64,000 bases of DNA. Origin: a virus. Below are positions 4,937-64,000 of the stretch, one piece after another. How positions within the stretch are numbered: the stretch's first letter is position 1; each line of letters opens with the position of its first letter. The stretch is taken from positions 65,622 to 129,621 of the IMG/VR virus record IMGVR_UViG_3300005683_000019; one strand, 5' to 3'. The translations under genes were made by a program, and so were the position numbers. A model generated the notes under the pieces. It ran no database searches. It was not told the DNA's origin and worked only from the letters and a program-made list of their open reading frames with translations.

Positions 4937-5444
4937 AGAAGTTGTAGAGAACTTTTACAACTATAATGCCCCAATTGATGATAAGATCACGTTGGAAAAA
5001 ACTCTTCATGGTAAGACTTTGAAAGATATCCTACGCTTCTCTAAGGAAGAACATGAAGAGTGTCACGGGCATGTGCAGATTTTGTTTCCAAACATTGCTC
5101 CGAGCAAAATGAACCCGTTCGCTCCTGTAATTAAAGACTTTTCAGTGTTTGATGGTGTATACCGATCAATTATTGTAGATACAGTCTTTACTTTCTGCAA
5201 GAATTATGGCTTTGATCCAACATATTACTGCGATGGTTGTAATGTTGACTCTATGAGAATCGCGACATGGCTTCGTGGCGGAAATCATAATGTACTGCGC
5301 ATGTCACGTATCATGAACTTCTTGAAAGGTGTCAATTTTAACATTGAATTTGAAACAATGCGCAACATTCTTTTACATGAAATTGATGCACTTGGCAGAA
5401 GCAAGGAACTCGCGTATACTACATACATCTGGAGGAATCTGTGA
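4917..5444 (+). CDS. OGFr_N (opioid growth factor receptor-like) domain protein
   Basis: EECHGHVQILFP...SKMNPFAP...WLRGGNHNVLRMSRIM matches OGFr conserved-region motifs. Confidence 0.7.
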   Translation: MNQILTKEVVENFYNYNAPIDDKITLEKTLHGKTLKDILRFSKEEHEECHGHVQILFPNIAPSKMNPFAPVIKDFSVFDGVYRSIIVDTVFTFCKNYGFDPTYYCDGCNVDSMRIATWLRGGNHNVLRMSRIMNFLKGVNFNIEFETMRNILLHEIDALGRSKELAYTTYIWRNL

Positions 5445-5538
5445 TGGAAACTGTTAAACTGATTGTGTCAGCGATTGTGATGATTATTTTTATCATCCCA
5501 TTTTGGTGGACAGTTGTAATTTGATATATACAATATAT

Positions 5539-5622
5539 GGGCTTGTGGTGTAATGGCAGCCGCGCTACGCTTAGAACGTAGTCCCTTTTGGGGTGTCAGT
5601 TCGAGTCTGACCAAGCCCACCA
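5539..5622 (+). tRNA. tRNA-Leu(TAG)
   Basis: GGGCTTG/CAAGCCC acceptor, CTACG-CTTAGAA-CGTAG, variable arm, CCA. Confidence 0.9.
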
Positions 5623-5785
5623 AATTTTGGAGATTGTTGTTGCCAGTAGAATCGAAAATTTTTGTATTATTCTGGCTAACGACAATGACATTGATGGTAA
5701 TCAAGCCATTGTTGGCAATTTGTAACATTTTAATTGCTCTTTTTGTTATAACATCTTGGCTGAGAAATCAAGACGGCGAAGATGA

Positions 5786-5814
5786 TTGACAACGAAAGCA
5801 AGTGTTGTTAGTAT
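5786..5814 (+). promoter_or_regulatory. Sigma70 promoter
   Basis: TTGACA-17bp-TAGTAT, 8 nt before the tRNA-like RNA. Confidence 0.7.
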
Positions 5815-5822
5815 GAACTCAT

Positions 5823-5958
5823 GGTTGGATGGCGAAAAGAGAGAAAGATGTCCTCATCGGCGATGGCGATGTTTTTCAGGTAGACGCTACGGGTAGCACC
5901 CTAGGGATTGTGATGCTGCAATAATCTCGTCCAAGTTCAAATCTTGGTCCGACCACCA
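5823..5958 (+). ncRNA. Leu-like tRNA-shaped RNA with D-loop hairpin insert and abnormal anticodon arm
   Basis: GGTTGGA/TCCGACC-A-CCA, T-arm CCAAG-TTCAAAT-CTTGG, GGTAGACGC D motif, about 40-nt hairpin in D-loop. Confidence 0.6.
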
Positions 5959-6152
5959 TTTTTCCACAGTAATCGTTTAAACTGTGGCCGTAATCGACGC
6001 GTTGAATGTCGATCCTATAGCGGTGATGGTGAATGCCGTCTTCTCTGAAATATGGTACATATTTCTAGTCACGCTCTTGGCTATATGACGAACGACATGT
6101 TAAGTCATTTAAGTAAAAACGAAACATGAGCAAGAATGATATATAGAATTAT

Positions 6153-6242
6153 GGGAGACGAAAGTAAGGACCATCTGGTGTAGTCGCTTGGCTGTAAACC
6201 AAGTCCCCACGGGGCAAGGCGTTCGATTCGACCCGTTTCCCA
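6153..6242 (+). tRNA. Atypical tRNA-Tyr(GTA), 8/4 type
   Basis: CTTGG-CTGTAAA-CCAAG; 8-bp acceptor GGGAGACG/CGTTTCCC; 4-bp T-stem with bulged A; no encoded CCA. Confidence 0.7.
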
Positions 6243-6250
6243 ATAATTTT

Positions 6251-6467
6251 GAGGTCTTAGCTAAGTAGGTATTTTAAATCTTTACTGATTTAAAAGGCAG
6301 TCGGAGACTTCACAGTTGATCCGATAGAGGCATGTAGTTGGCCGTTGTCAGTGAAAATTTCACTTGACACAAACCCGAAGTTATGTCATTATTGGCATTG
6401 ATTTTGGGAACTATAGCATCGGTGTGAAGAACCGACAGCGCCGGTTCAATTCCGGCAGACCTCACCA
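6251..6467 (+). tRNA. tRNA-Phe(GAA) interrupted by 142-nt D-loop insert (6272-6413)
   Basis: Removing insert gives GAGGTCT TA GCTA AGTAGGTA TAGC A TCGGT GTGAAGA ACCGA CAGC GCCGG TTCAATT CCGGC AGACCTC A CCA. Confidence 0.85.
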
Positions 6468-6678
6468 AGTTTAAAATGTTTATAAACCGAAGAAAGTGGG
6501 TTATCTTATATGATAGCTAGGCCGGTTGTAGAGAGCCTAAAAAGTGTATGATACTGACATGCAAATAAGTGTCATGGCTAGACAAGAATCTAGATCGCAA
6601 CCAACACTACAAGTAAAATTGGAAGTGTGTCGATAGCGAAATATCGACGTCCCATTTTCATAAATTGTTTATAGATAT

Positions 6679-6754
6679 GGCTCGTTAACTCAGTTGGTAG
6701 AGTGTCGCTCCTACAAAGCGAATGTCGTAGGTTCGAACCCTACACGAGCCACCA
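6679..6754 (+). tRNA. tRNA-Val(TAC)
   Basis: Cloverleaf, loop CC-TAC-AA (C33), CCA. Confidence 0.85.
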
Positions 6755-6905
6755 AATTAACATAGAACTTAACAAATAATTAAAACTCTGGCAGGTAGCG
6801 TACCTTACGCCAAAAGTAAAAAAACGTATCAGGGAGTAGAGTTCTCCCAAGCCGTGAAGTTCTATGTTATTCTACTTCTTGACAAATAGAACAAGGATTA
6901 TTTTA

Positions 6906-7481
6906 ATGAATTTCAGGGATACGATGCAGGATTGTTTCTATAGATACCCAAGTTTGTTTCCTCATCCATTGAGCGTGGCGGTCCATCTATTTTTCGTCAT
7001 TGGTAATGGTTATGAATGGGTTGATGGAGAACTGATTGCTTCAAAAAAGAAGCAACCAGCTAAGAGTTTTACACGTCATAAACGTAAAGCTCATATTATT
7101 GAGCTTTCATCGCGCGATGAACTAATCTTGCCGGAATCTGAGAAAAAGGTATTAGAACTACACAACTTTAAGAGACATGAAGATTTTAAAGTCTTCAAGA
7201 AGCTCATTCCGAAAATGTTGGACGTGCCGTGTACAACTGTCCCCGGAATTCCTTTTCCAAAAGATTTTTGTTACTATACGATTAACATTTCGACTCTTGC
7301 TAGCCTGTATACCTTTCCAAGTAATATTAAACCAGATTGGGCGAAAGCATTGAAAGATGCATTGCATTGGGGTATTTGGAACTTGGAGTCATATAAAAGG
7401 GAGCGTTCAAAGGAAAATGTAGGAGAATCCATGGATAGATTGCTTACTACCTTAAAACGCTTGCGCGAACTAACAGGTTGA
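6906..7481 (+). CDS. Hypothetical protein
   Basis: ORF; start moved to MNFRD after AAGGA. Confidence 0.7.
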   Translation: MNFRDTMQDCFYRYPSLFPHPLSVAVHLFFVIGNGYEWVDGELIASKKKQPAKSFTRHKRKAHIIELSSRDELILPESEKKVLELHNFKRHEDFKVFKKLIPKMLDVPCTTVPGIPFPKDFCYYTINISTLASLYTFPSNIKPDWAKALKDALHWGIWNLESYKRERSKENVGESMDRLLTTLKRLRELTG

Positions 7482-7518
7482 CTCGGAGTAACAGATTAGG
7501 TATAGTCATTACACATAA

Positions 7519-7608
7519 GGGACGGTCGTCAAGTTGGCCGAAGACACCGGACTTTTAATCCGACAGGGGGAACCCTCACCGTAGGTTCGAATCCTACTCG
7601 TCCCACCA
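7519..7608 (+). tRNA. tRNA with Lys anticodon (TTT) and long variable arm
   Basis: Loop CT-TTT-AA, variable hairpin AGGG-GGAA-CCCT, class-II-like D-loop, A-CCA. Confidence 0.8.
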
Positions 7609-10502: not shown

Positions 10503-11417
10503 CATGCAAGACGGGAACCACTGACGAGATCTCCCGAAAAATGATCGAAAGCTCTACACTAAATAGAGCTATGGTTTAGCACTCTAGGGACGAAAGGAAC
10601 TAGTGACCGGATAGAGTATCGCGAGATGCTTAAAGATTGGCAGCCTCCCTAGCCAATCACCAGAAATGGCCCATCTAAACAATGGTACATATCTCCACTG
10701 GAAACAGTGGTCTGATCTAAAAAATCAGATAGATTGAAGATGTAGTGGGACAGACAGAATATCTGGCTAACTGTGGGATATCTGTAGCTCCGCAAGAGTC
10801 TACCACATGCAAATACATTGAAAATCGAAGATGAATACCAAGGTATGAGGTTCGAGCTTTAGCGGGCAAGGGCGCATACGAAGATGTATAAGGTTATGGA
10901 AGCTTTGTGCACCATAAAGGTATACAACAGTGTGAGTAGTCTTAGCGGATGAAAGTACAGGAGGCGTGTGGTATATCGTATAATAAAGTTATACGATGTC
11001 ACGGTGACACGCGTCTTAGGAGGTTACAACTTGGCCTATTGGTTGGGCATTAGTCTTTTAACACTAACGTAAGGTGGTTCGACTCCATCAGTTCATAAAA
11101 ACGCAAAGTTGTCACCGGCTGTAATTGAAAATAGCGTAACACTTGACACTTCGGTGAATCAAGTCAATATAAAGCTCGCAAAGCGATATATTGTTCAAGG
11201 AAAGTTGCACGTAAGGGGTAGCTCCCTGTACTGCTCGCAAGGTAGGCGGTAGACGGAACTTGGAATAGATTACAGTGACACTAGAATTGCCACTAGTATA
11301 AAAAGGCCGCTATGGTTGATACTTCCAAGGTGGAAGTGGATAAGGGAAGAACTTTAAGATTAAGCACCTTAGAGATAATGTCCCGAAAGGCAACCGCATC
11401 ATGCTCTAATCTCAGGC
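10503..11417 (+). ncRNA. Giant structured ncRNA, GOLLD-like
   Basis: About 915 nt without ORF, many hairpins with GNRA/GCAA loops, own promoter, tRNA-cluster context; GTGAGTAGTC, GCTCGCAA, GGGTAGCTCC and terminal TAATCTCAG match my recollection of GOLLD (no covariance search run). Confidence 0.65.
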
Positions 11418-11548
11418 TTGACTAATAGATTTCTTAATGTTGCCAAGGATATGTTTCATACGATTCCTTTTGAGTTCTCCTTGTTATAGCACGCCATTCT
11501 TGGCAACATTAAGAAATTTAGATTGACACAAACACTAAATAGATTTAA

Positions 11549-13930: not shown

Positions 13931-13938
13931 AAAATTAT

Positions 13939-14020
13939 AGCGTCTGAGACATATGGCTGAGTCAGCATCCTTTGAAGTTGTGGGGGAAACCCTTACTAGG
14001 TTCGAATCCTAGAGACGCTG
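13939..14020 (+). tRNA. tRNA with Gln anticodon (TTG) and long variable arm
   Basis: AGCGTCT/AGACGCT-G, loop CT-TTG-AA, GGGG-GAAA-CCCT arm; no encoded CCA. Confidence 0.7.
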
Positions 14021-14698
14021 GAAAGTTCGTTGAAAAGCGCCGGATAATATTTCCGGCGCATATGTTTTTAACCATTTATTTATTTTCTGTGGTTTCTTAT
14101 TCAATAGAATTGATAATTCTGTCACCCATCCATATTTCGAAAAATCAATATTACAATTCTTTAAAAGCTCTAAATCTTTTCTTACTTTTTCTGTCAATCT
14201 TCCTTTTTTTAAGTTAGAAACAAACCATTGTACTTTTTCGGGTTTCTTCTTATAGCTATTTTTTCCACAAAATGTTGTTGTCTGTGCATGACAATTTCTG
14301 CATAGCAATCTTAAGTTTTCTAAACGGTGATCCGTTGGTATACCATTAATATGATCTAAATCTAACGGAATCGGTAAATCATTCCATTGTGACAATTGGC
14401 ACCTTTGACATCTATGTTCAAAAATACCCTCTTTTATTAGTCTCACTCTTAGATGGGATGTCGAATATAAAGGATGTTTACCTATCAAAATATCTTTAAT
14501 ATCTATAGGCGCTGACTGATTTATATTAGTATCTACTTGGAAATGAGATATATCTATATCATATAATTTTATATAATAATTCAAGATTTTATATGAATAA
14601 CTACTTTTTGGGTGCATATTTAAAAGCTTGAAACATTCAATTTTGGATTTACTTGTTTTTACTACATTTTGTAACACGTCTTTTTCTATTTGATTCAT
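14009..14698 (-). CDS. HNH homing endonuclease
   Basis: CQRC...LDLDHINGIPTDHRLENLRLLCRNCH; start moved to MNQIEK (AGAAGG RBS, CATAAATA upstream). Confidence 0.85.
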   Translation of the reverse strand: MNQIEKDVLQNVVKTSKSKIECFKLLNMHPKSSYSYKILNYYIKLYDIDISHFQVDTNINQSAPIDIKDILIGKHPLYSTSHLRVRLIKEGIFEHRCQRCQLSQWNDLPIPLDLDHINGIPTDHRLENLRLLCRNCHAQTTTFCGKNSYKKKPEKVQWFVSNLKKGRLTEKVRKDLELLKNCNIDFSKYGWVTELSILLNKKPQKINKWLKTYAPEILSGAFQRTFQRL

Positions 14699-15454: not shown

Positions 15455-15594
15455 GTCTCTTTGGCCGAGTGGTCTATGGCAGCAGGCTGTGGGTGTAGAG
15501 TTATAGGCTCTTTTCAGTTCAAATCTGAAATCACCAAAAGTAACCTGCCGTTGCGAAAGCACAATCGTTGGTTCGAATCCAACAGGGGACTCCA
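15455..15594 (+). tRNA. His-like tRNA (GTG) with 50-nt anticodon-loop intron and long variable arm
   Basis: GTCTCTT/AGGGGAC-T-CCA, D-arm GCCG/TGGC, stem GCAGG/CCTGC interrupted at 15493-15542. Confidence 0.75.
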
Positions 15595-19359: not shown

Positions 19360-19447
19360 GCCGCCTTGCCAGAGTGGTTTGAATGGACCTGATTCGTAAT
19401 CAGGCGACGTAAGTCCATCGCAGGTTCGAATCCTGTGGGCGGCTCCA
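19360..19447 (+). tRNA. tRNA-Thr(CGT) with long variable arm
   Basis: CCTGA-TTCGTAA-TCAGG, GAC-GTAA-GTC arm, C2-G71. Confidence 0.85.
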
Positions 19448-23203: not shown

Positions 23204-23287
23204 AGAAAAGTTCATCGCCAGTGTAATAAATCTTTATTGGCTTAAAAAGCCAATTCAAGAAATTTTTGTACAACTGCTATAAATAGA

Positions 23288-23500
23288 TTTGTATCTAAAG
23301 ATACAAATCTTCCTAATCAAATAAGTGGAATCTCCACAAGAGGGAAGAAGTTGTAAGTAAAAGCAGTCGGAGACTTCACGGTTGATCCGATAGAGGCATG
23401 TAGTTGGCCGTTGCCAGTGAAATTGTCACTAGACACAAACCAGAAGTTATGTCATTATTGACATTGATTTCAGGAACTATAAAAAGTACCAAAAAGAAAG
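23288..23500 (+). ncRNA. Stand-alone structured RNA sharing a 119-nt core with the tRNA-Phe insert
   Basis: 23363-23481 equals 6297-6415 with 9 substitutions by hand alignment; TATAAATA upstream, terminator downstream. Confidence 0.75.
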
Positions 23501-23526
23501 AAAAGGCGGCCTAGGCCGCCTTTTCT
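23499..23526. terminator. Bidirectional intrinsic terminator
   Basis: Palindrome AGAAAAGGCGGCCTAGGCCGCCTTTTCT at convergent junction. Confidence 0.85.
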
Positions 23527-23545
23527 CATTCAATGAATCCTTCGT

Positions 23546-23818
23546 TTAGCATGGCGCGTCTCCATTTTCTAGAATATTGACACCTGCAATATTCTCATGT
23601 GCCAGAAATTTCTTAAACTCACTTGCGTATGCAGTAATCTGTACTACCCCGATGATCGGAAACACCTTGTAAGAAAATACATCGAAATTATTGAAATAGT
23701 TCTCTGCGAAGATCTTCTTGTCTTCATCAGAAGTTAAATGATTTCGATCTAAGATAATATTAGCTGACACAACATTATCGTCAACTGCCAGTGCTGCTGT
23801 AAGTGTTTCTTTATTCAT
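23546..23818 (-). CDS. Hypothetical protein
   Basis: AAGGA RBS, 90 aa. Confidence 0.65.
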   Translation of the reverse strand: MNKETLTAALAVDDNVVSANIILDRNHLTSDEDKKIFAENYFNNFDVFSYKVFPIIGVVQITAYASEFKKFLAHENIAGVNILENGDAPC

Positions 23819-63393: not shown

Positions 63394-63447
63394 TATTTTT
63401 TCCCTTTTGACCAACGTATTTATTACAGAATCAGAAAGATGCAAAAG

Positions 63448-63477
63448 AAAAATGGCAGCCAAAAGCTGCCATTTTTT
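63448..63477 (-). terminator. tmRNA terminator
   Basis: AAAAATGGCAGC-loop-GCTGCCATTTTT. Confidence 0.75.
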
Positions 63478-63743
63478 AATCAATTGGATAATAAGGATGA
63501 TCAGTCCCCAATGGTTCATGCCGCTAGGGCAGTTTCACCATAAAATGCGTCATTGCTTGCATTTATATTTTTTATGCTGATTAGGTCAGTCATCTATCCA
63601 GTTGTCCATTTGTTTACTCTTCTTCCCGTCGAAGCCTTGCCGACCCATCAACAGAAAACTTAATACACAAATTTTCTCTTGGTGGATCGGACGGGAATCG
63701 AACCCGTGTCCGCGAAGCCTTTCGACTTACTTCATACAACCAT
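63478..63743 (-). ncRNA. ssrA: Two-piece (circularly permuted) tmRNA
   Basis: Acceptor piece ...GGACACGGGTTCGATTCCCGTCCGATCC-ACCA precedes coding piece GGGTCGG...TTCGACGGG; G3:U70; tag ASNDAFYGETALAA-stop at 63516-63560. Confidence 0.9.
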
Positions 63744-63747
63744 ATTT

Positions 63748-63954
63748 TTATTTATAACTATTAATCTTATCTTCTAAACGTGCCATTTTTAACTGAATTT
63801 GTTCATAAACTTTATCATAACCAAAAATTGTAGCCATTTGTTCCATCATGATGATCACATCTGATATTTCACTAATCCAATCTTCGACAGTATCCCTATT
63901 TTGAGCTTTTCTTCCCACTAAAGTTAGAAACTCTCCACATTCTCCAACCGCCAT
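63748..63954 (-). CDS. MazG-like nucleotide pyrophosphohydrolase (5' end uncertain)
   Basis: ECGE...EISDV; homology-like text WGVADQIN continues upstream to an in-frame TAA. Confidence 0.6.
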   Translation of the reverse strand: MAVGECGEFLTLVGRKAQNRDTVEDWISEISDVIIMMEQMATIFGYDKVYEQIQLKMARLEDKINSYK

Positions 63955-64000
63955 ATTTATTTGATCCGCTACTCCCCACGTATTTTAAATCTTTATTAAT

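What the first reader, a model, noticed from the sequence alone, without database searches (positions are those of the whole stretch)
6251..6467. tRNA-Phe with a 142-nt structured D-loop insert that also exists as a free-standing gene
Removing 6272-6413 restores a perfect 75-nt tRNA-Phe(GAA). The boundary is ambiguous by a TAT direct repeat (positions 19/20 to 22/23). The core of the insert (6297-6415) recurs at 23363-23481 with 9 substitutions in 119 nt. Several changes preserve helices (ATGTCA pairing with TGGCAT or TGACAT) or fall in loops. GGAGACTT and GAAGTTATGTC superficially resemble the group I R and S elements. However, the insert is too short, lacks P4-P6 and lacks the G-C guanosine site, and it has no group II ends or clear BHB. 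It is the only Phe tRNA in the window. This is a candidate new mobile or self-excising RNA element.
Basis: partly seen in the sequence, partly recalled or inferred. Interest (0 to 1): 0.9.

Follow-up and report, generated by a model that had tools for sequence, protein, structure and literature searches.

The report
Miniature IS607 transposon inside phage tRNA-Phe
The 142-base insert that splits the phage's tRNA-Phe gene is not a new self-splicing RNA but a protein-less remnant of an IS607-type DNA transposon whose "structured core" is the guide-RNA (omega RNA) scaffold of the TnpB nuclease; related phages in other sewage samples carry the same tRNA gene without it.

Summary
tRNA-Phe(GAA) at 6251-6467 is split in its D loop by 142 nt bounded by a TAT repeat. 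The core recurs at 23358-23480 (9 changes in 119 nt) and a third time outside the window.

The interpretation does not hold. In a complete 306-kb phage, the same core is the last ~35 codons of a tnpB gene plus the transposon right end. That gene lies next to an IS607-family serine recombinase. This position defines a TnpB omega RNA (reRNA). A covariance model finds the same fold at the 3' ends of distant tnpB genes in phages, bacteria and archaea, with strong covariation.

The first ~27 nt of the insert match the left end of the full element. The TAT ambiguity fits serine-recombinase crossover at a shared core dinucleotide.

Contigs from three independent wastewater/activated-sludge DNA metagenomes join 6269 to 6412. 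They skip exactly these 142 nt and leave an intact tRNA-Phe gene, so this is a DNA insertion polymorphism.

There is no group I, group II or BHB signature. The 129.6-kb record holds no tnpA or tnpB, so the copies are orphans.

Verdict: a new member of a known kind (a PATE-like mini-IS607 carrying an omega RNA). Interest is modest.

The parts
6251..6269 (+). tRNA-Phe(GAA) 5' part: acceptor 5' strand, D-stem 5' strand and D loop up to G18 G19.
   Evidence: contigs of other metagenomes run through here and join to 6412.
6270..6272 (+). Left TAT. It is one of two copies, shared by target and element, and holds the inferred TA crossover core. With the preceding GG it gives GGTAT, the inferred TAM / target motif.
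   Evidence: joint ambiguous by 3 letters. The same GTAT stands left of the left end in G001 and at the contig end.
6273..6296 (+). Left-end (LE) remnant of the IS607-type element. It carries the shared motif AAATCTTTAYTG. It joins the tnpB tail at an AAAAG microhomology.
   Evidence: Alignment A4 with the LE of the full element in G001 and of copy c2; motif scan.
6297..6401 (+). Remnant of the last 35 codons of tnpB (..AVGDFTVDPIEACSW..HYWH, stop TGA at 6399-6401). It overlaps the 5' two-thirds of the omega RNA scaffold.
   Evidence: tblastn of G001 TnpB gives 82% identity to residues 318-355; ORF in L004.
6293..6414 (+). Omega RNA (reRNA) scaffold = right end (RE) of the element. It has four well-supported helices (1, 3, 4, 5) plus a short, weakly supported one. 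The closing helix pairs UGUAGUU with AACUAUA. It ends ..GGGAACTAT.
   Evidence: CM R1 scores 151 bits. The same fold occurs at the 3' ends of distant tnpB genes with covariation.
6415..6434 (+). Inferred guide segment of the omega RNA. It is the first ~16-20 nt of the 3' flank, i.e. the tRNA-Phe D-stem 3' strand plus the anticodon stem-loop.
   Evidence: Inferred from the known TnpB/omega RNA architecture (PMC10711439, PMC10055086). The copies diverge completely right after ..ACTAT.
6415..6467 (+). tRNA-Phe 3' part: D-stem 3' strand, anticodon arm with GAA, T arm, acceptor 3' strand and encoded CCA.
23224..23480 (+). Copy c2, a ~257-nt protein-less mini-element in an intergenic spacer. Its longer LE starts at 23226 with ATAAATCTTTATTGG and holds TATAAATA at 23278-23285. 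The omega RNA scaffold is 23358-23480. The left junction reads GTGT instead of GTAT.
   Evidence: (17/17 LE match to G001, E 3.6e-5).
23481..23526 (+). 3' flank of c2: inferred guide (23481-~23500), then an intrinsic terminator hairpin GGCGGCC/GGCCGCC with a T run (23501-23526).
   Evidence: sequence. The terminator-type sRNA hits all sit on this hairpin.
63980..64000 (+). Probable fourth left end: G TAT|TTTAAATCTTTATTAAT at the very end of the contig. The record stops 17 nt into it.
   Evidence: 16 of 16 identical to the c1 junction GTATTTTAAATCTTTA. Caveat: the same AT-rich 20-mer has 7 chance-like hits across IMG/VR.

Best explanation
The 142-nt insert is a miniature, non-autonomous derivative of an IS607-family insertion sequence. 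It keeps about 27 nt of left end, fused through an AAAAG microhomology to the last 35 codons of tnpB plus the right end. That second part is exactly the segment that encodes the TnpB omega RNA scaffold.

The element (or its full-length parent, later deleted internally) integrated into the D-loop coding part of a T4-like phage's tRNA-Phe gene. Integration was by serine-recombinase crossover at a TA core within GGTAT. This leaves no target duplication and produces the TAT ambiguity.

Shown here:
- homology of the core to the tnpB 3' end and right end;
- a conserved, covarying RNA fold at that position in distant tnpB genes;
- left-end homology to the full element;
- an empty site in related phages at the DNA level;
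- no tnpA or tnpB in the 129.6 kb held.

Inferred:
- The interrupted gene no longer yields tRNA-Phe.
- The insert is transcribed in the sense direction with the tRNA cluster, giving an omega RNA whose guide is the tRNA-Phe sequence 3' of the insert.
- With a TnpB supplied in trans, this RNA would direct cleavage of intact tRNA-Phe alleles (GGTAT followed by AGCATCGG..). Those alleles would be repaired from the occupied copy, which is homing.
- With TnpA supplied in trans, the insert could excise scarlessly and restore the tRNA gene.
For: 1; a near-identical core in IMGVR_UViG_3300013288_000004 directly follows the ..DVNGAYNIMRKA motif.
2; the ORF that runs into the core is TnpB (OrfB_IS605 4e-22, Cas12f1-like TNB 4e-12, NF040570 guided_TnpB 167 bits against a cut-off of 100). 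The overlapping upstream ORF is an IS607 transposase (NF033518 183.5 bits against a cut-off of 110; Resolvase 1.2e-18).
3; the three copies in G000 match only TnpB residues ~314-355 (81-82% for c1 and c3).
4. CM R1 hits 13 further loci of tnpB relatives, always overlapping the end of the TnpB match (9 of them at E<0.1, 4 at E 0.08-1.5 and some only partial). These include phage loci L022, L023 and L025, Chloroflexi loci L074 and L075, Paenibacillus L091, Mitsuokella L073 and an archaeon L077.
5; 96% and 91.5% of cells are paired, against 32-45% when partners are slid. 23 and 35 of 40 pairs show double changes. 0 of 500 shuffles reach the observed values.
6; the c1 left part, the c2 left part and the G001 LE align (GGTAT / T.T.AATCTTTAYTG..TTA.AAG).
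7; one contig in each of X3, X4 and X10 (three studies) joins 6269 to 6412, skipping 142 nt with a 3-nt ambiguity. Each has 255 nt or more on both sides. One is a 17-kb contig about 97% identical to the window.
8., table 7: in X3 a contig carries the same core (2 differences) preceded by GGATGTAAATGGAGCTTATAATATTTTGAG, which I translate as DVNGAYNIL... A version with a tnpB 3' end therefore circulates in the same kind of habitat.
9; no TNB or Resolvase domain anywhere in G000.
10. Literature: IS607 elements have no inverted repeats and no TSD, recombine at a matching dinucleotide, excise scarlessly, and their TAM includes that dinucleotide (PMC10711439; 10.1101/2023.11.20.567912). ORF-less PATE-like elements that still encode omega RNAs are described for IS605 (PMC10055086).
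Against: - No RNA data here show that the omega RNA is made or that tRNA-Phe is lost.
- No TnpB or TnpA is present in the held 60% of the genome, so activity in trans is conjecture.
- The TA core and GTAT TAM rest on only four junctions. One of them (c2) reads GTGT, and one (the contig end) is not verified.
- Described IS607 elements use GG cores.
- Only 27 nt of left end remain in c1, which may be too little for TnpA. The insert could then be an immobile deletion remnant.
- The pair counts were made on alignments fitted to the model, which favours the structure.
Confidence: 0.88

Rival explanations
1. One reading: the insert is a new self-splicing or otherwise self-excising RNA (a ribozyme-type intron) that is removed from the pre-tRNA, so tRNA-Phe stays functional. 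The other copies would be free-standing genes of the same RNA.
For: The fold is stable (z = -6.45 for the whole pre-tRNA) and the helices covary. Removal restores a perfect tRNA. It is the only tRNA-Phe found in the window. The phage encodes a T4 Rnl1-type RNA ligase (phrog_562, 4e-95).
Against: - The core is homologous to the coding 3' end of tnpB plus the right end of an IS607 element, and the covariation is accounted for by the omega RNA.
- Presence or absence is at the DNA level.
- There is no hit to group I, group II or any self-cleaving ribozyme family, even at E up to 10.
- At 142 nt, with about 27 nt of that being transposon left end, there is no room for a group I core.
- The junctions cannot form a bulge-helix-bulge in any of the four registers. 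I checked this by hand: the central 4-nt strands would be GUAG/GGAA or UAGG/GAAC, which do not pair.
Confidence: 0.03
2. Domesticated guide-RNA genes: the three TnpB-less copies are kept by the phage as a small array of guides. These would be used by a TnpB or a nuclease-dead TnpB-like protein encoded elsewhere (in the missing 40% of the genome, the host, or a co-infecting phage). Their purpose would be competition between phages or gene regulation rather than transposon maintenance.
For: - Three copies keep the full scaffold at 92-97% identity while everything else of the element is gone.
- c2 retains a TATAAATA box and is followed by a terminator.
- c3 has an extended -10-like TGATATAAT box just upstream.
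- TnpB relatives exapted by phages as RNA-guided regulators are known (10.1101/2023.11.30.569447).
Against: - c1 and c2 retain transposon left ends and sit at TAM-like sites, as plain insertions do.
- The guides are simply the local flanks.
- No effector gene is seen.
- The occupied tRNA-Phe allele was seen only in the source study, whereas three other studies assemble the empty allele. This looks like a recent insertion, not a fixed function.
Confidence: 0.08
3. Assembly artefact: a repeat-induced chimera placed the core inside the tRNA gene.
For: The core is a three-copy repeat in this genome. The record is a metagenome assembly that ends inside another possible copy.
Against: - The junctions fall exactly at a TAT shared with the target and restore a perfect tRNA.
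- The insert has its own left-end segment, which differs from those of the other copies.
- Two runs of the source study hold 95-98% of the sampled 31-mers of 5900-6900.
Confidence: 0.01

Closest known systems
IS607-family insertion sequences with TnpB and omega RNA/reRNA (e.g. ISXfa1, PMC10711439; C. botulinum IS607-type elements, 10.1101/2023.11.20.567912)
   Same: - The full-length relative has a serine-recombinase TnpA followed by TnpB, with the guide-RNA scaffold overlapping the tnpB 3' end and running to the right end.
- No inverted repeats and no target duplication.
- An identical short core at both junctions and in the empty site.
- A TAM-like motif that includes the core.
- A scarless empty site.
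   Different: - The copy in the tRNA has lost both genes: 142 nt against about 1.9 kb.
- The inferred core is TA within GTAT rather than GG within GGG or TGGG.
- The host is a T4-like phage, and the left end carries a T4-type late-promoter box.
- The closest cellular TnpB found is only about 43% identical.
PATE-like protein-less IS200/IS605 derivatives that still encode omega RNAs (Meers et al., PMC10055086)
   Same: A minimal non-autonomous element made only of the ends, with the right end encoding a guide RNA that needs TnpB, and TnpA for movement, in trans.
   Different: Those elements belong to the Y1-transposase (single-strand, hairpin-end) IS605 family. This one derives from a serine-recombinase IS607 element. 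Its left end shows a conserved sequence motif, not a conserved hairpin.
IStrons (group I intron + IS605/IS607 + TnpB)
   Same: A transposon of the same family interrupts a gene, and the omega RNA lies at the 3' end of the insert.
   Different: IStrons carry a complete group I intron at the 5' side that splices the element out of the RNA. Here the 5' side is about 27 nt of left end, and no group I signature exists.
Homing endonucleases of T-even phages that act on the tRNA gene region (T4 SegB, cited in PMC13565253)
   Same: A selfish element in the tRNA cluster of a T4-like phage. It is polymorphic between related phages and is expected to spread during co-infection by cleavage of the vacant allele.
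   Different: SegB is a protein-only endonuclease gene that lies between tRNA genes. Here, recognition would be RNA-guided, and the element lies inside a tRNA gene.

Membership tests
IS607-family transposon (non-autonomous derivative) | Serine-recombinase TnpA (transpos_IS607) encoded in the element or in a full-length relative with the same ends | tested here: met
   The full element in G001 scores NF033518 183.5 bits (cut-off 110) and Resolvase 1.2e-18. The gene is absent from the 142-nt copy and from all of G000, hence 'non-autonomous'.
IS607-family transposon (non-autonomous derivative) | Left and right ends homologous to those of the autonomous element | tested here: met
   RE: 91% over 123 nt. 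LE: alignment A4 for c1; a 17/17 match, E 3.6e-5, for c2.
IS607-family transposon (non-autonomous derivative) | No target-site duplication and no inverted repeats; the same short core at both junctions and in the vacant site | tested here: met
   TAT stands at 6270-6272 and 6412-6414. The empty-site contigs have a single TAT and the joint is ambiguous by 3. The G001 junctions read GGTAT|T.. and ..AACTAT|A.
IS607-family transposon (non-autonomous derivative) | Presence/absence polymorphism at the DNA level | tested here: met
   Contigs of three DNA metagenomes from three studies skip exactly the 142 nt.
IS607-family transposon (non-autonomous derivative) | Excision and integration catalysed by TnpA | not testable with these tools
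   Needs a transposition assay. It is open whether 27 nt of LE suffice.
TnpB omega RNA / reRNA | Encoded at the 3' end of tnpB, overlapping the ORF end and reaching the transposon right end | tested here: met
   (G001). R1 hits overlap the ends of the TnpB matches in L022, L023, L025, L073, L074, L075, L077 and L091.
TnpB omega RNA / reRNA | Conserved secondary structure supported by covariation | tested here: met
   Helices 1, 3, 4 and 5 are 92-98% paired, 35 of 40 pairs show double changes, and both the slide and shuffle controls are far lower. Caveat: the alignments were fitted to the model.
TnpB omega RNA / reRNA | Variable guide immediately 3' of the scaffold, equal to the flank of the insertion; a TAM 5' of the matching sequence in the vacant site | tested here: met
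   The copies diverge completely after ..ACTAT. The vacant tRNA-Phe allele reads GGTAT followed by the flank. The same GTAT stands left of the G001 element and of the contig-end LE. This is sequence logic only.
TnpB omega RNA / reRNA | Expressed, bound by TnpB, and able to direct DNA cleavage | not testable with these tools
   No raw RNA reads were available. Contigs cannot show RNA ends.
Group I / group II self-splicing intron | Conserved catalytic core detectable by the Rfam models | tested here: not met
   cmscan at E up to 10 over 6150-6520 and 23300-23560 gives no intron or ribozyme family. At 142 nt, including about 27 nt of transposon end, the insert is too short.
Archaeal-type BHB tRNA intron | Two 3-nt bulges holding the splice sites, separated by a 4-bp helix and abutting an exon helix | tested here: not met
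   Hand check on the sequence, for the registers compatible with the D stem: the central strands GUAG/GGAA or UAGG/GAAC cannot pair.

The most novel reading that the evidence does not exclude
The 142-nt insert may be a working 'guide-only' gene-drive cassette of T4-like phages. It would be transcribed with the tRNA cluster. Its omega RNA would load a TnpB made by a full-length copy in the same or a co-infecting genome and cut the intact tRNA-Phe allele (GGTAT + AGCATCGG..) of competing relatives. Those alleles would then be converted or excluded. The cassette would also remain mobilisable by a serine recombinase with only about 27 nt of left end and a TA (not GG) core. If so, it would be the smallest functional IS607 derivative and a natural case of RNA-guided homing between viruses.
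Probability: 0.2. Interest if true: 0.6.

Novelty: new member of a known kind. Interest (0 to 1): 0.3.

Why it matters
This removes a tempting false lead. A covarying, structured, Rfam-less RNA inside a tRNA looked like a new ribozyme-type intron, but it is explained by a known system.

What remains of value is modest but real:
- An omega RNA family of a phage-borne IS607 lineage that Rfam does not yet hold.
- A protein-less 142-nt IS607 derivative. Such minimal forms are described for IS605, and I found no description for IS607 in the papers searched.
- An inferred TA/GTAT target instead of the GG-type cores studied so far.
- A natural occupied/vacant polymorphism of a phage tRNA gene across wastewater metagenomes. 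This could be used to study RNA-guided homing between co-infecting phages.

It also warns that some 'interrupted tRNAs' in phage tRNA clusters are plain transposon hits.

Tried and rejected
- The INPHARED phage collection gave no match to 6251-6467 by blastn.
- Exact-pattern scans for the 5' part of the core gave three chance hits in unrelated coding DNA (L005-L007).
- A scan of viral contigs for the uninterrupted tRNA-Phe junction found nothing. The vacant allele was found only by laying contigs of sequencing runs.
- A search for relatives through the neighbouring ORF 6864-7481 gave one weak hit.
- The metagenome scan with a 24-nt core word returned only a relative of G000 with copy c3 and a relative of G001 with the full element. 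The genome scan with the same word returned nothing. Their parent records could not be searched.
- A scan for the 20-nt left-end word gave 7 AT-rich hits with no omega RNA nearby. I take these as chance. They also temper the weight of the contig-end left end.
- RNA-labelled run X15 (probably DNA) has contigs on both flanks of the insert and none over 6288-6435. This is only a gap in cover and shows nothing.
- The hairpin TTTAAATC/GATTTAAA in the c1 left end is not conserved in c2 or G001. I therefore read the left end as a protein-binding sequence, not an RNA or DNA hairpin.
- G001's own tRNA-Phe is unrelated in sequence, so it is no vacant-site control.
- PDB sequence search with the TnpB gave only an AI-designed nuclease at 1e-6.
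- I considered a Y1-transposase IS605/PATE origin and rejected it, because the linked transposase is a serine recombinase.

Full report
**What is in the sequence.** The window is the second half of a 129,621-nt IMG/VR virus record, estimated about 60% complete. It has T4-like traits: RIIA and a T4 Rnl1-type RNA ligase, about 20 tRNA genes, a GOLLD RNA and a permuted tmRNA.

At 6251-6467 the two parts of a tRNA-Phe(GAA) gene are separated by 142 nt. Cutting out 6272-6413 gives a 75-nt sequence that ARAGORN folds into a clean tRNA-Phe. TAT stands at both borders (6270-6272 and 6412-6414), so four registers are equivalent. The interrupted gene is not called by ARAGORN or by Rfam at gathering level.

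The 3' ~122 nt of the insert recur at 23358-23480 (92%; 9 changes in the 119-nt core). They recur again at G000:C1:21558-21679 on the minus strand (97%). No Rfam family explains them, even at E up to 10.

**What the core is.** An exact-word scan of IMG/VR found one further copy, in a complete 306,759-nt phage with terminal repeats (G001). There the core is not free-standing. It follows ..NADVNGAYNIMRKA, and the ORF reads on through the core (..AVGDVKIDPIEACSWPLSVKISLDTKPKLCHYWH).

- That ORF (409 aa) is a TnpB: OrfB_IS605 5e-22, Cas12f1-like TNB 5e-12, NF040570 'guided_TnpB' 167 bits with a cut-off of 100.
- The ORF overlapping its start by 4 nt (188 aa) is an IS607-family serine transposase: NF033518 183.5 bits with a cut-off of 110; Resolvase 1.2e-18.

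A structured RNA that overlaps the end of tnpB and runs to the transposon's right end defines the omega RNA (reRNA) of TnpB (PMC10711439, PMC10055086). In the window's genome the three copies match only TnpB residues ~314-355. No TNB or Resolvase domain exists anywhere in the 129.6 kb.

**Covariation.** A covariance model built from the four close copies (R1) was run on the loci of TnpB relatives. These loci came from viral contigs (36-49% protein identity) and from bacterial and archaeal genomes (up to 43%). It hits the plus strand at the end of the TnpB match in L022, L023 and L025 (phages), L074 and L075 (Chloroflexi), L091, L103, L092 and L117 (Paenibacillus), L073 and L109 (Mitsuokella), and L076 and L077 (Asgard archaea); the weakest (L092, L117, L076) are short partial matches at E 0.06-1.5.

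On these alignments 96% (6 sequences) and 91.5% (19 distinct sequences) of cells are paired, against 32-45% when the 3' partners are slid. 23 and 35 of the 40 pairs show double changes. None of 500 shuffles reaches the observed values.

The alignments were fitted to the model, which favours the structure. Even so, the margin is large, and helices 1, 3, 4 and 5 are each supported.

**What the rest of the insert is.** The first ~27 nt of the insert (after TAT: TTTAAATCTTTACTGATTTAAAAG) align with two other sequences:
- the sequence 98 nt upstream of tnpA in G001 (after GGTAT: TATGAATCTTTATTGAATTAGAAG);
- the sequence at 23226-23250 upstream of copy c2 (ATAAATCTTTATTGGCTTAAAAAG).

c2 shares a further 17/17 identical stretch with the G001 left end (CTATAAATAGATTTGTA; E 3.6e-5).

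- c1 is therefore left end (about 27 nt) plus tnpB tail and right end, joined where both parents read AAAAG.
- c2 is a longer left end (about 75 nt or more, with a TATAAATA box at 23278-23285) plus degenerate filler plus the same right end. It lies in a spacer between two convergent ORFs and is followed by a terminator.

The hairpin seen in the c1 left end is not conserved in the other two, so the shared feature is a sequence motif. A similar word, TCWTTATTGR, stands in the right end in the same orientation (my reading).

**Junction logic.** The left junctions read:
- GGTAT|TTTAAATC (c1);
- GGTAT|TATGAATC (G001);
- AGTGT|AATAAATC (c2);
- CGTAT|TTTAAATC (contig end; see below).

All right ends read ..GRAACTAT, followed by unrelated flanks.

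IS607 elements have no inverted repeats and make no duplication. They recombine between identical dinucleotides in the element ends and the target, they excise scarlessly, and their TnpB's TAM contains that dinucleotide. ISXfa1 uses GG/GGG and the C. botulinum elements use TGGG (PMC10711439; 10.1101/2023.11.20.567912).

I infer a TA core within a GTAT target/TAM. The right end reads ACTAT, which differs from GGTAT at the two 5' positions. That difference could spare the occupied site from self-cleavage. These points rest on four junctions and are inference.

**The decisive test: is the insert absent at the DNA level?** Twenty public runs from 15 studies hold at least part of 5900-6900; the 13 that hold half of its words or more are bioreactor sludge, activated sludge or wastewater. 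I laid Logan contigs of four runs on 5400-7600. In each of the three DNA runs (X3, X4, X10; different studies), one contig of a close relative joins 6269 to 6412. For example, a 17,107-nt contig in X4 shows about 3% differences. Each contig skips exactly 142 nt, with 3 ambiguous letters and at least 255 nt on both sides. Intact tRNA-Phe alleles therefore exist as DNA, and the insert is an insertion polymorphism.

In X3 a separate low-depth contig carries the core (2 differences in 122 nt). It is preceded by 30 letters that I translate as DVNGAYNIL.., so a version still attached to a tnpB 3' end circulates in the same kind of habitat.

**How it most likely works.**

Shown:
- The insert is a protein-less IS607-type mini-element.
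- Its core is an omega RNA scaffold.
- The tRNA gene exists both occupied and vacant.

Inferred:
- The occupied gene no longer gives tRNA-Phe. The break is after G18 G19 in the D loop, and nothing in the sequence provides for RNA excision.
- The element is transcribed in the sense direction with the tRNA cluster. This gives an omega RNA whose guide is AGCAUCGGUGUGAAGA.., the tRNA-Phe sequence just 3' of the insert.
- With TnpB in trans, this RNA would cut vacant alleles next to GGTAT. Recombination with an occupied genome during co-infection would copy the element in, as shown for IS605 and IS607 in bacteria (PMC10055086; 10.1101/2023.11.20.567912). This is analogous to SegB-type marker exclusion in the T4 tRNA region (cited in PMC13565253).
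- With TnpA in trans, the element could excise scarlessly.

It is open whether c1 moved as a mini-element or arose by deletion in place. It is also open whether 27 nt of left end can still be recognised.

**Rivals.**
- A self-splicing or self-cleaving RNA is very unlikely (about 3%). The core is homologous to a coding tail plus a transposon end, the polymorphism is at the DNA level, there is no intron or ribozyme model hit, there is no room for a catalytic core, and no BHB can be drawn.
- A domesticated set of guide RNAs is possible but unsupported (about 8%).
- An assembly artefact is very unlikely (about 1%).

**Comparison and novelty.**
- It works like, and is a member of, the IS607/TnpB-omega RNA system.
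- In form it parallels the PATE-like ORF-less IS605 derivatives.
- It is not an IStron, because it has no group I part.

New here:
- this omega RNA lineage, which is absent from Rfam;
- the very small size;
- the inferred TA/GTAT site;
- the phage-adapted left end with a T4-type late-promoter box;
- the location inside a phage tRNA gene, with both alleles present in nature.

I rate it as a new member of a known kind, with interest 0.3.

**Earlier notes of this scan.**
- One note describes c2 as a free-standing transcription unit with a TATAAATA box. I confirm the box and the terminator but read the unit as a second mini-transposon.
- One proposes that all interrupted tRNAs of the window form an Rnl1-dependent maturation system. 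The ligase is there, but this insert does not need that idea.
- The other interrupted tRNAs are not hit by the omega RNA model or by the left-end motif, so they are separate questions.

Noticed in passing
window 63980-64000 (end of the contig): G TAT|TTTAAATCTTTATTAAT is 16/16 identical to the junction and left end of the tRNA-Phe insert. The record stops 17 nt into it. A further copy, possibly the full-length tnpA-tnpB element, may lie just beyond the assembly. The same AT-rich 20-mer also has chance-like hits in IMG/VR.
   Followed up: partly
G000:C1:21558-21679 minus strand (L002:1498-1626, outside the window): This third copy of the scaffold (97%) reaches further into tnpB (..YNILRKA) and has a TGATATAAT box just upstream. 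It has no clear left end. The word AACTAT+TTTTCTACTTTT upstream repeats its own right-end junction AACTAT+GTTC+TTTTTCTACTTTT, which is unexplained. A 38-codon hydrophobic ORF lies just upstream, preceded by GGTATTAT.
   Followed up: partly
window 23278-23285 and L014 ~5795-5802 (minus strand): The left end of the IS607-type element carries TATAAATA, the T4-type late-promoter consensus, about 25 nt before the tnpA start in the full element. The transposon seems adapted to late transcription of T4-like phages.
   Followed up: no
window 15455-15591: A tRNA with a ~50-nt insert in the anticodon loop and a long, class-II-like variable arm. The anticodon is ambiguous (ARAGORN says Asn GTT with an intron; His, Thr and Tyr readings are also possible). 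It is too short for a group I intron and is not related to the IS607 element.
   Followed up: partly
window 10961-11418: GOLLD RNA (Rfam RF02032, 201.8 bits) with an embedded tRNA-like domain at 11028-11093.
   Followed up: no
window 63446-63787 minus strand: A phage-encoded permuted (two-piece) tmRNA with tag ASNDAFYGETALAA (Rfam RF04321, 118 bits; also called by ARAGORN).
   Followed up: no
window 7519-7608, 13938-14021, 19360-19447: tRNA-Lys (90 nt), tRNA-Gln (84 nt) and tRNA-Thr (88 nt) are unusually long for their types. I did not examine them.
   Followed up: no
window 6160-6239: A tRNA-shaped stretch just upstream of tRNA-Phe. It scores only weakly (tRNA-Sec model 19.8 bits, E 0.18) and ARAGORN does not call it.
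   Followed up: no
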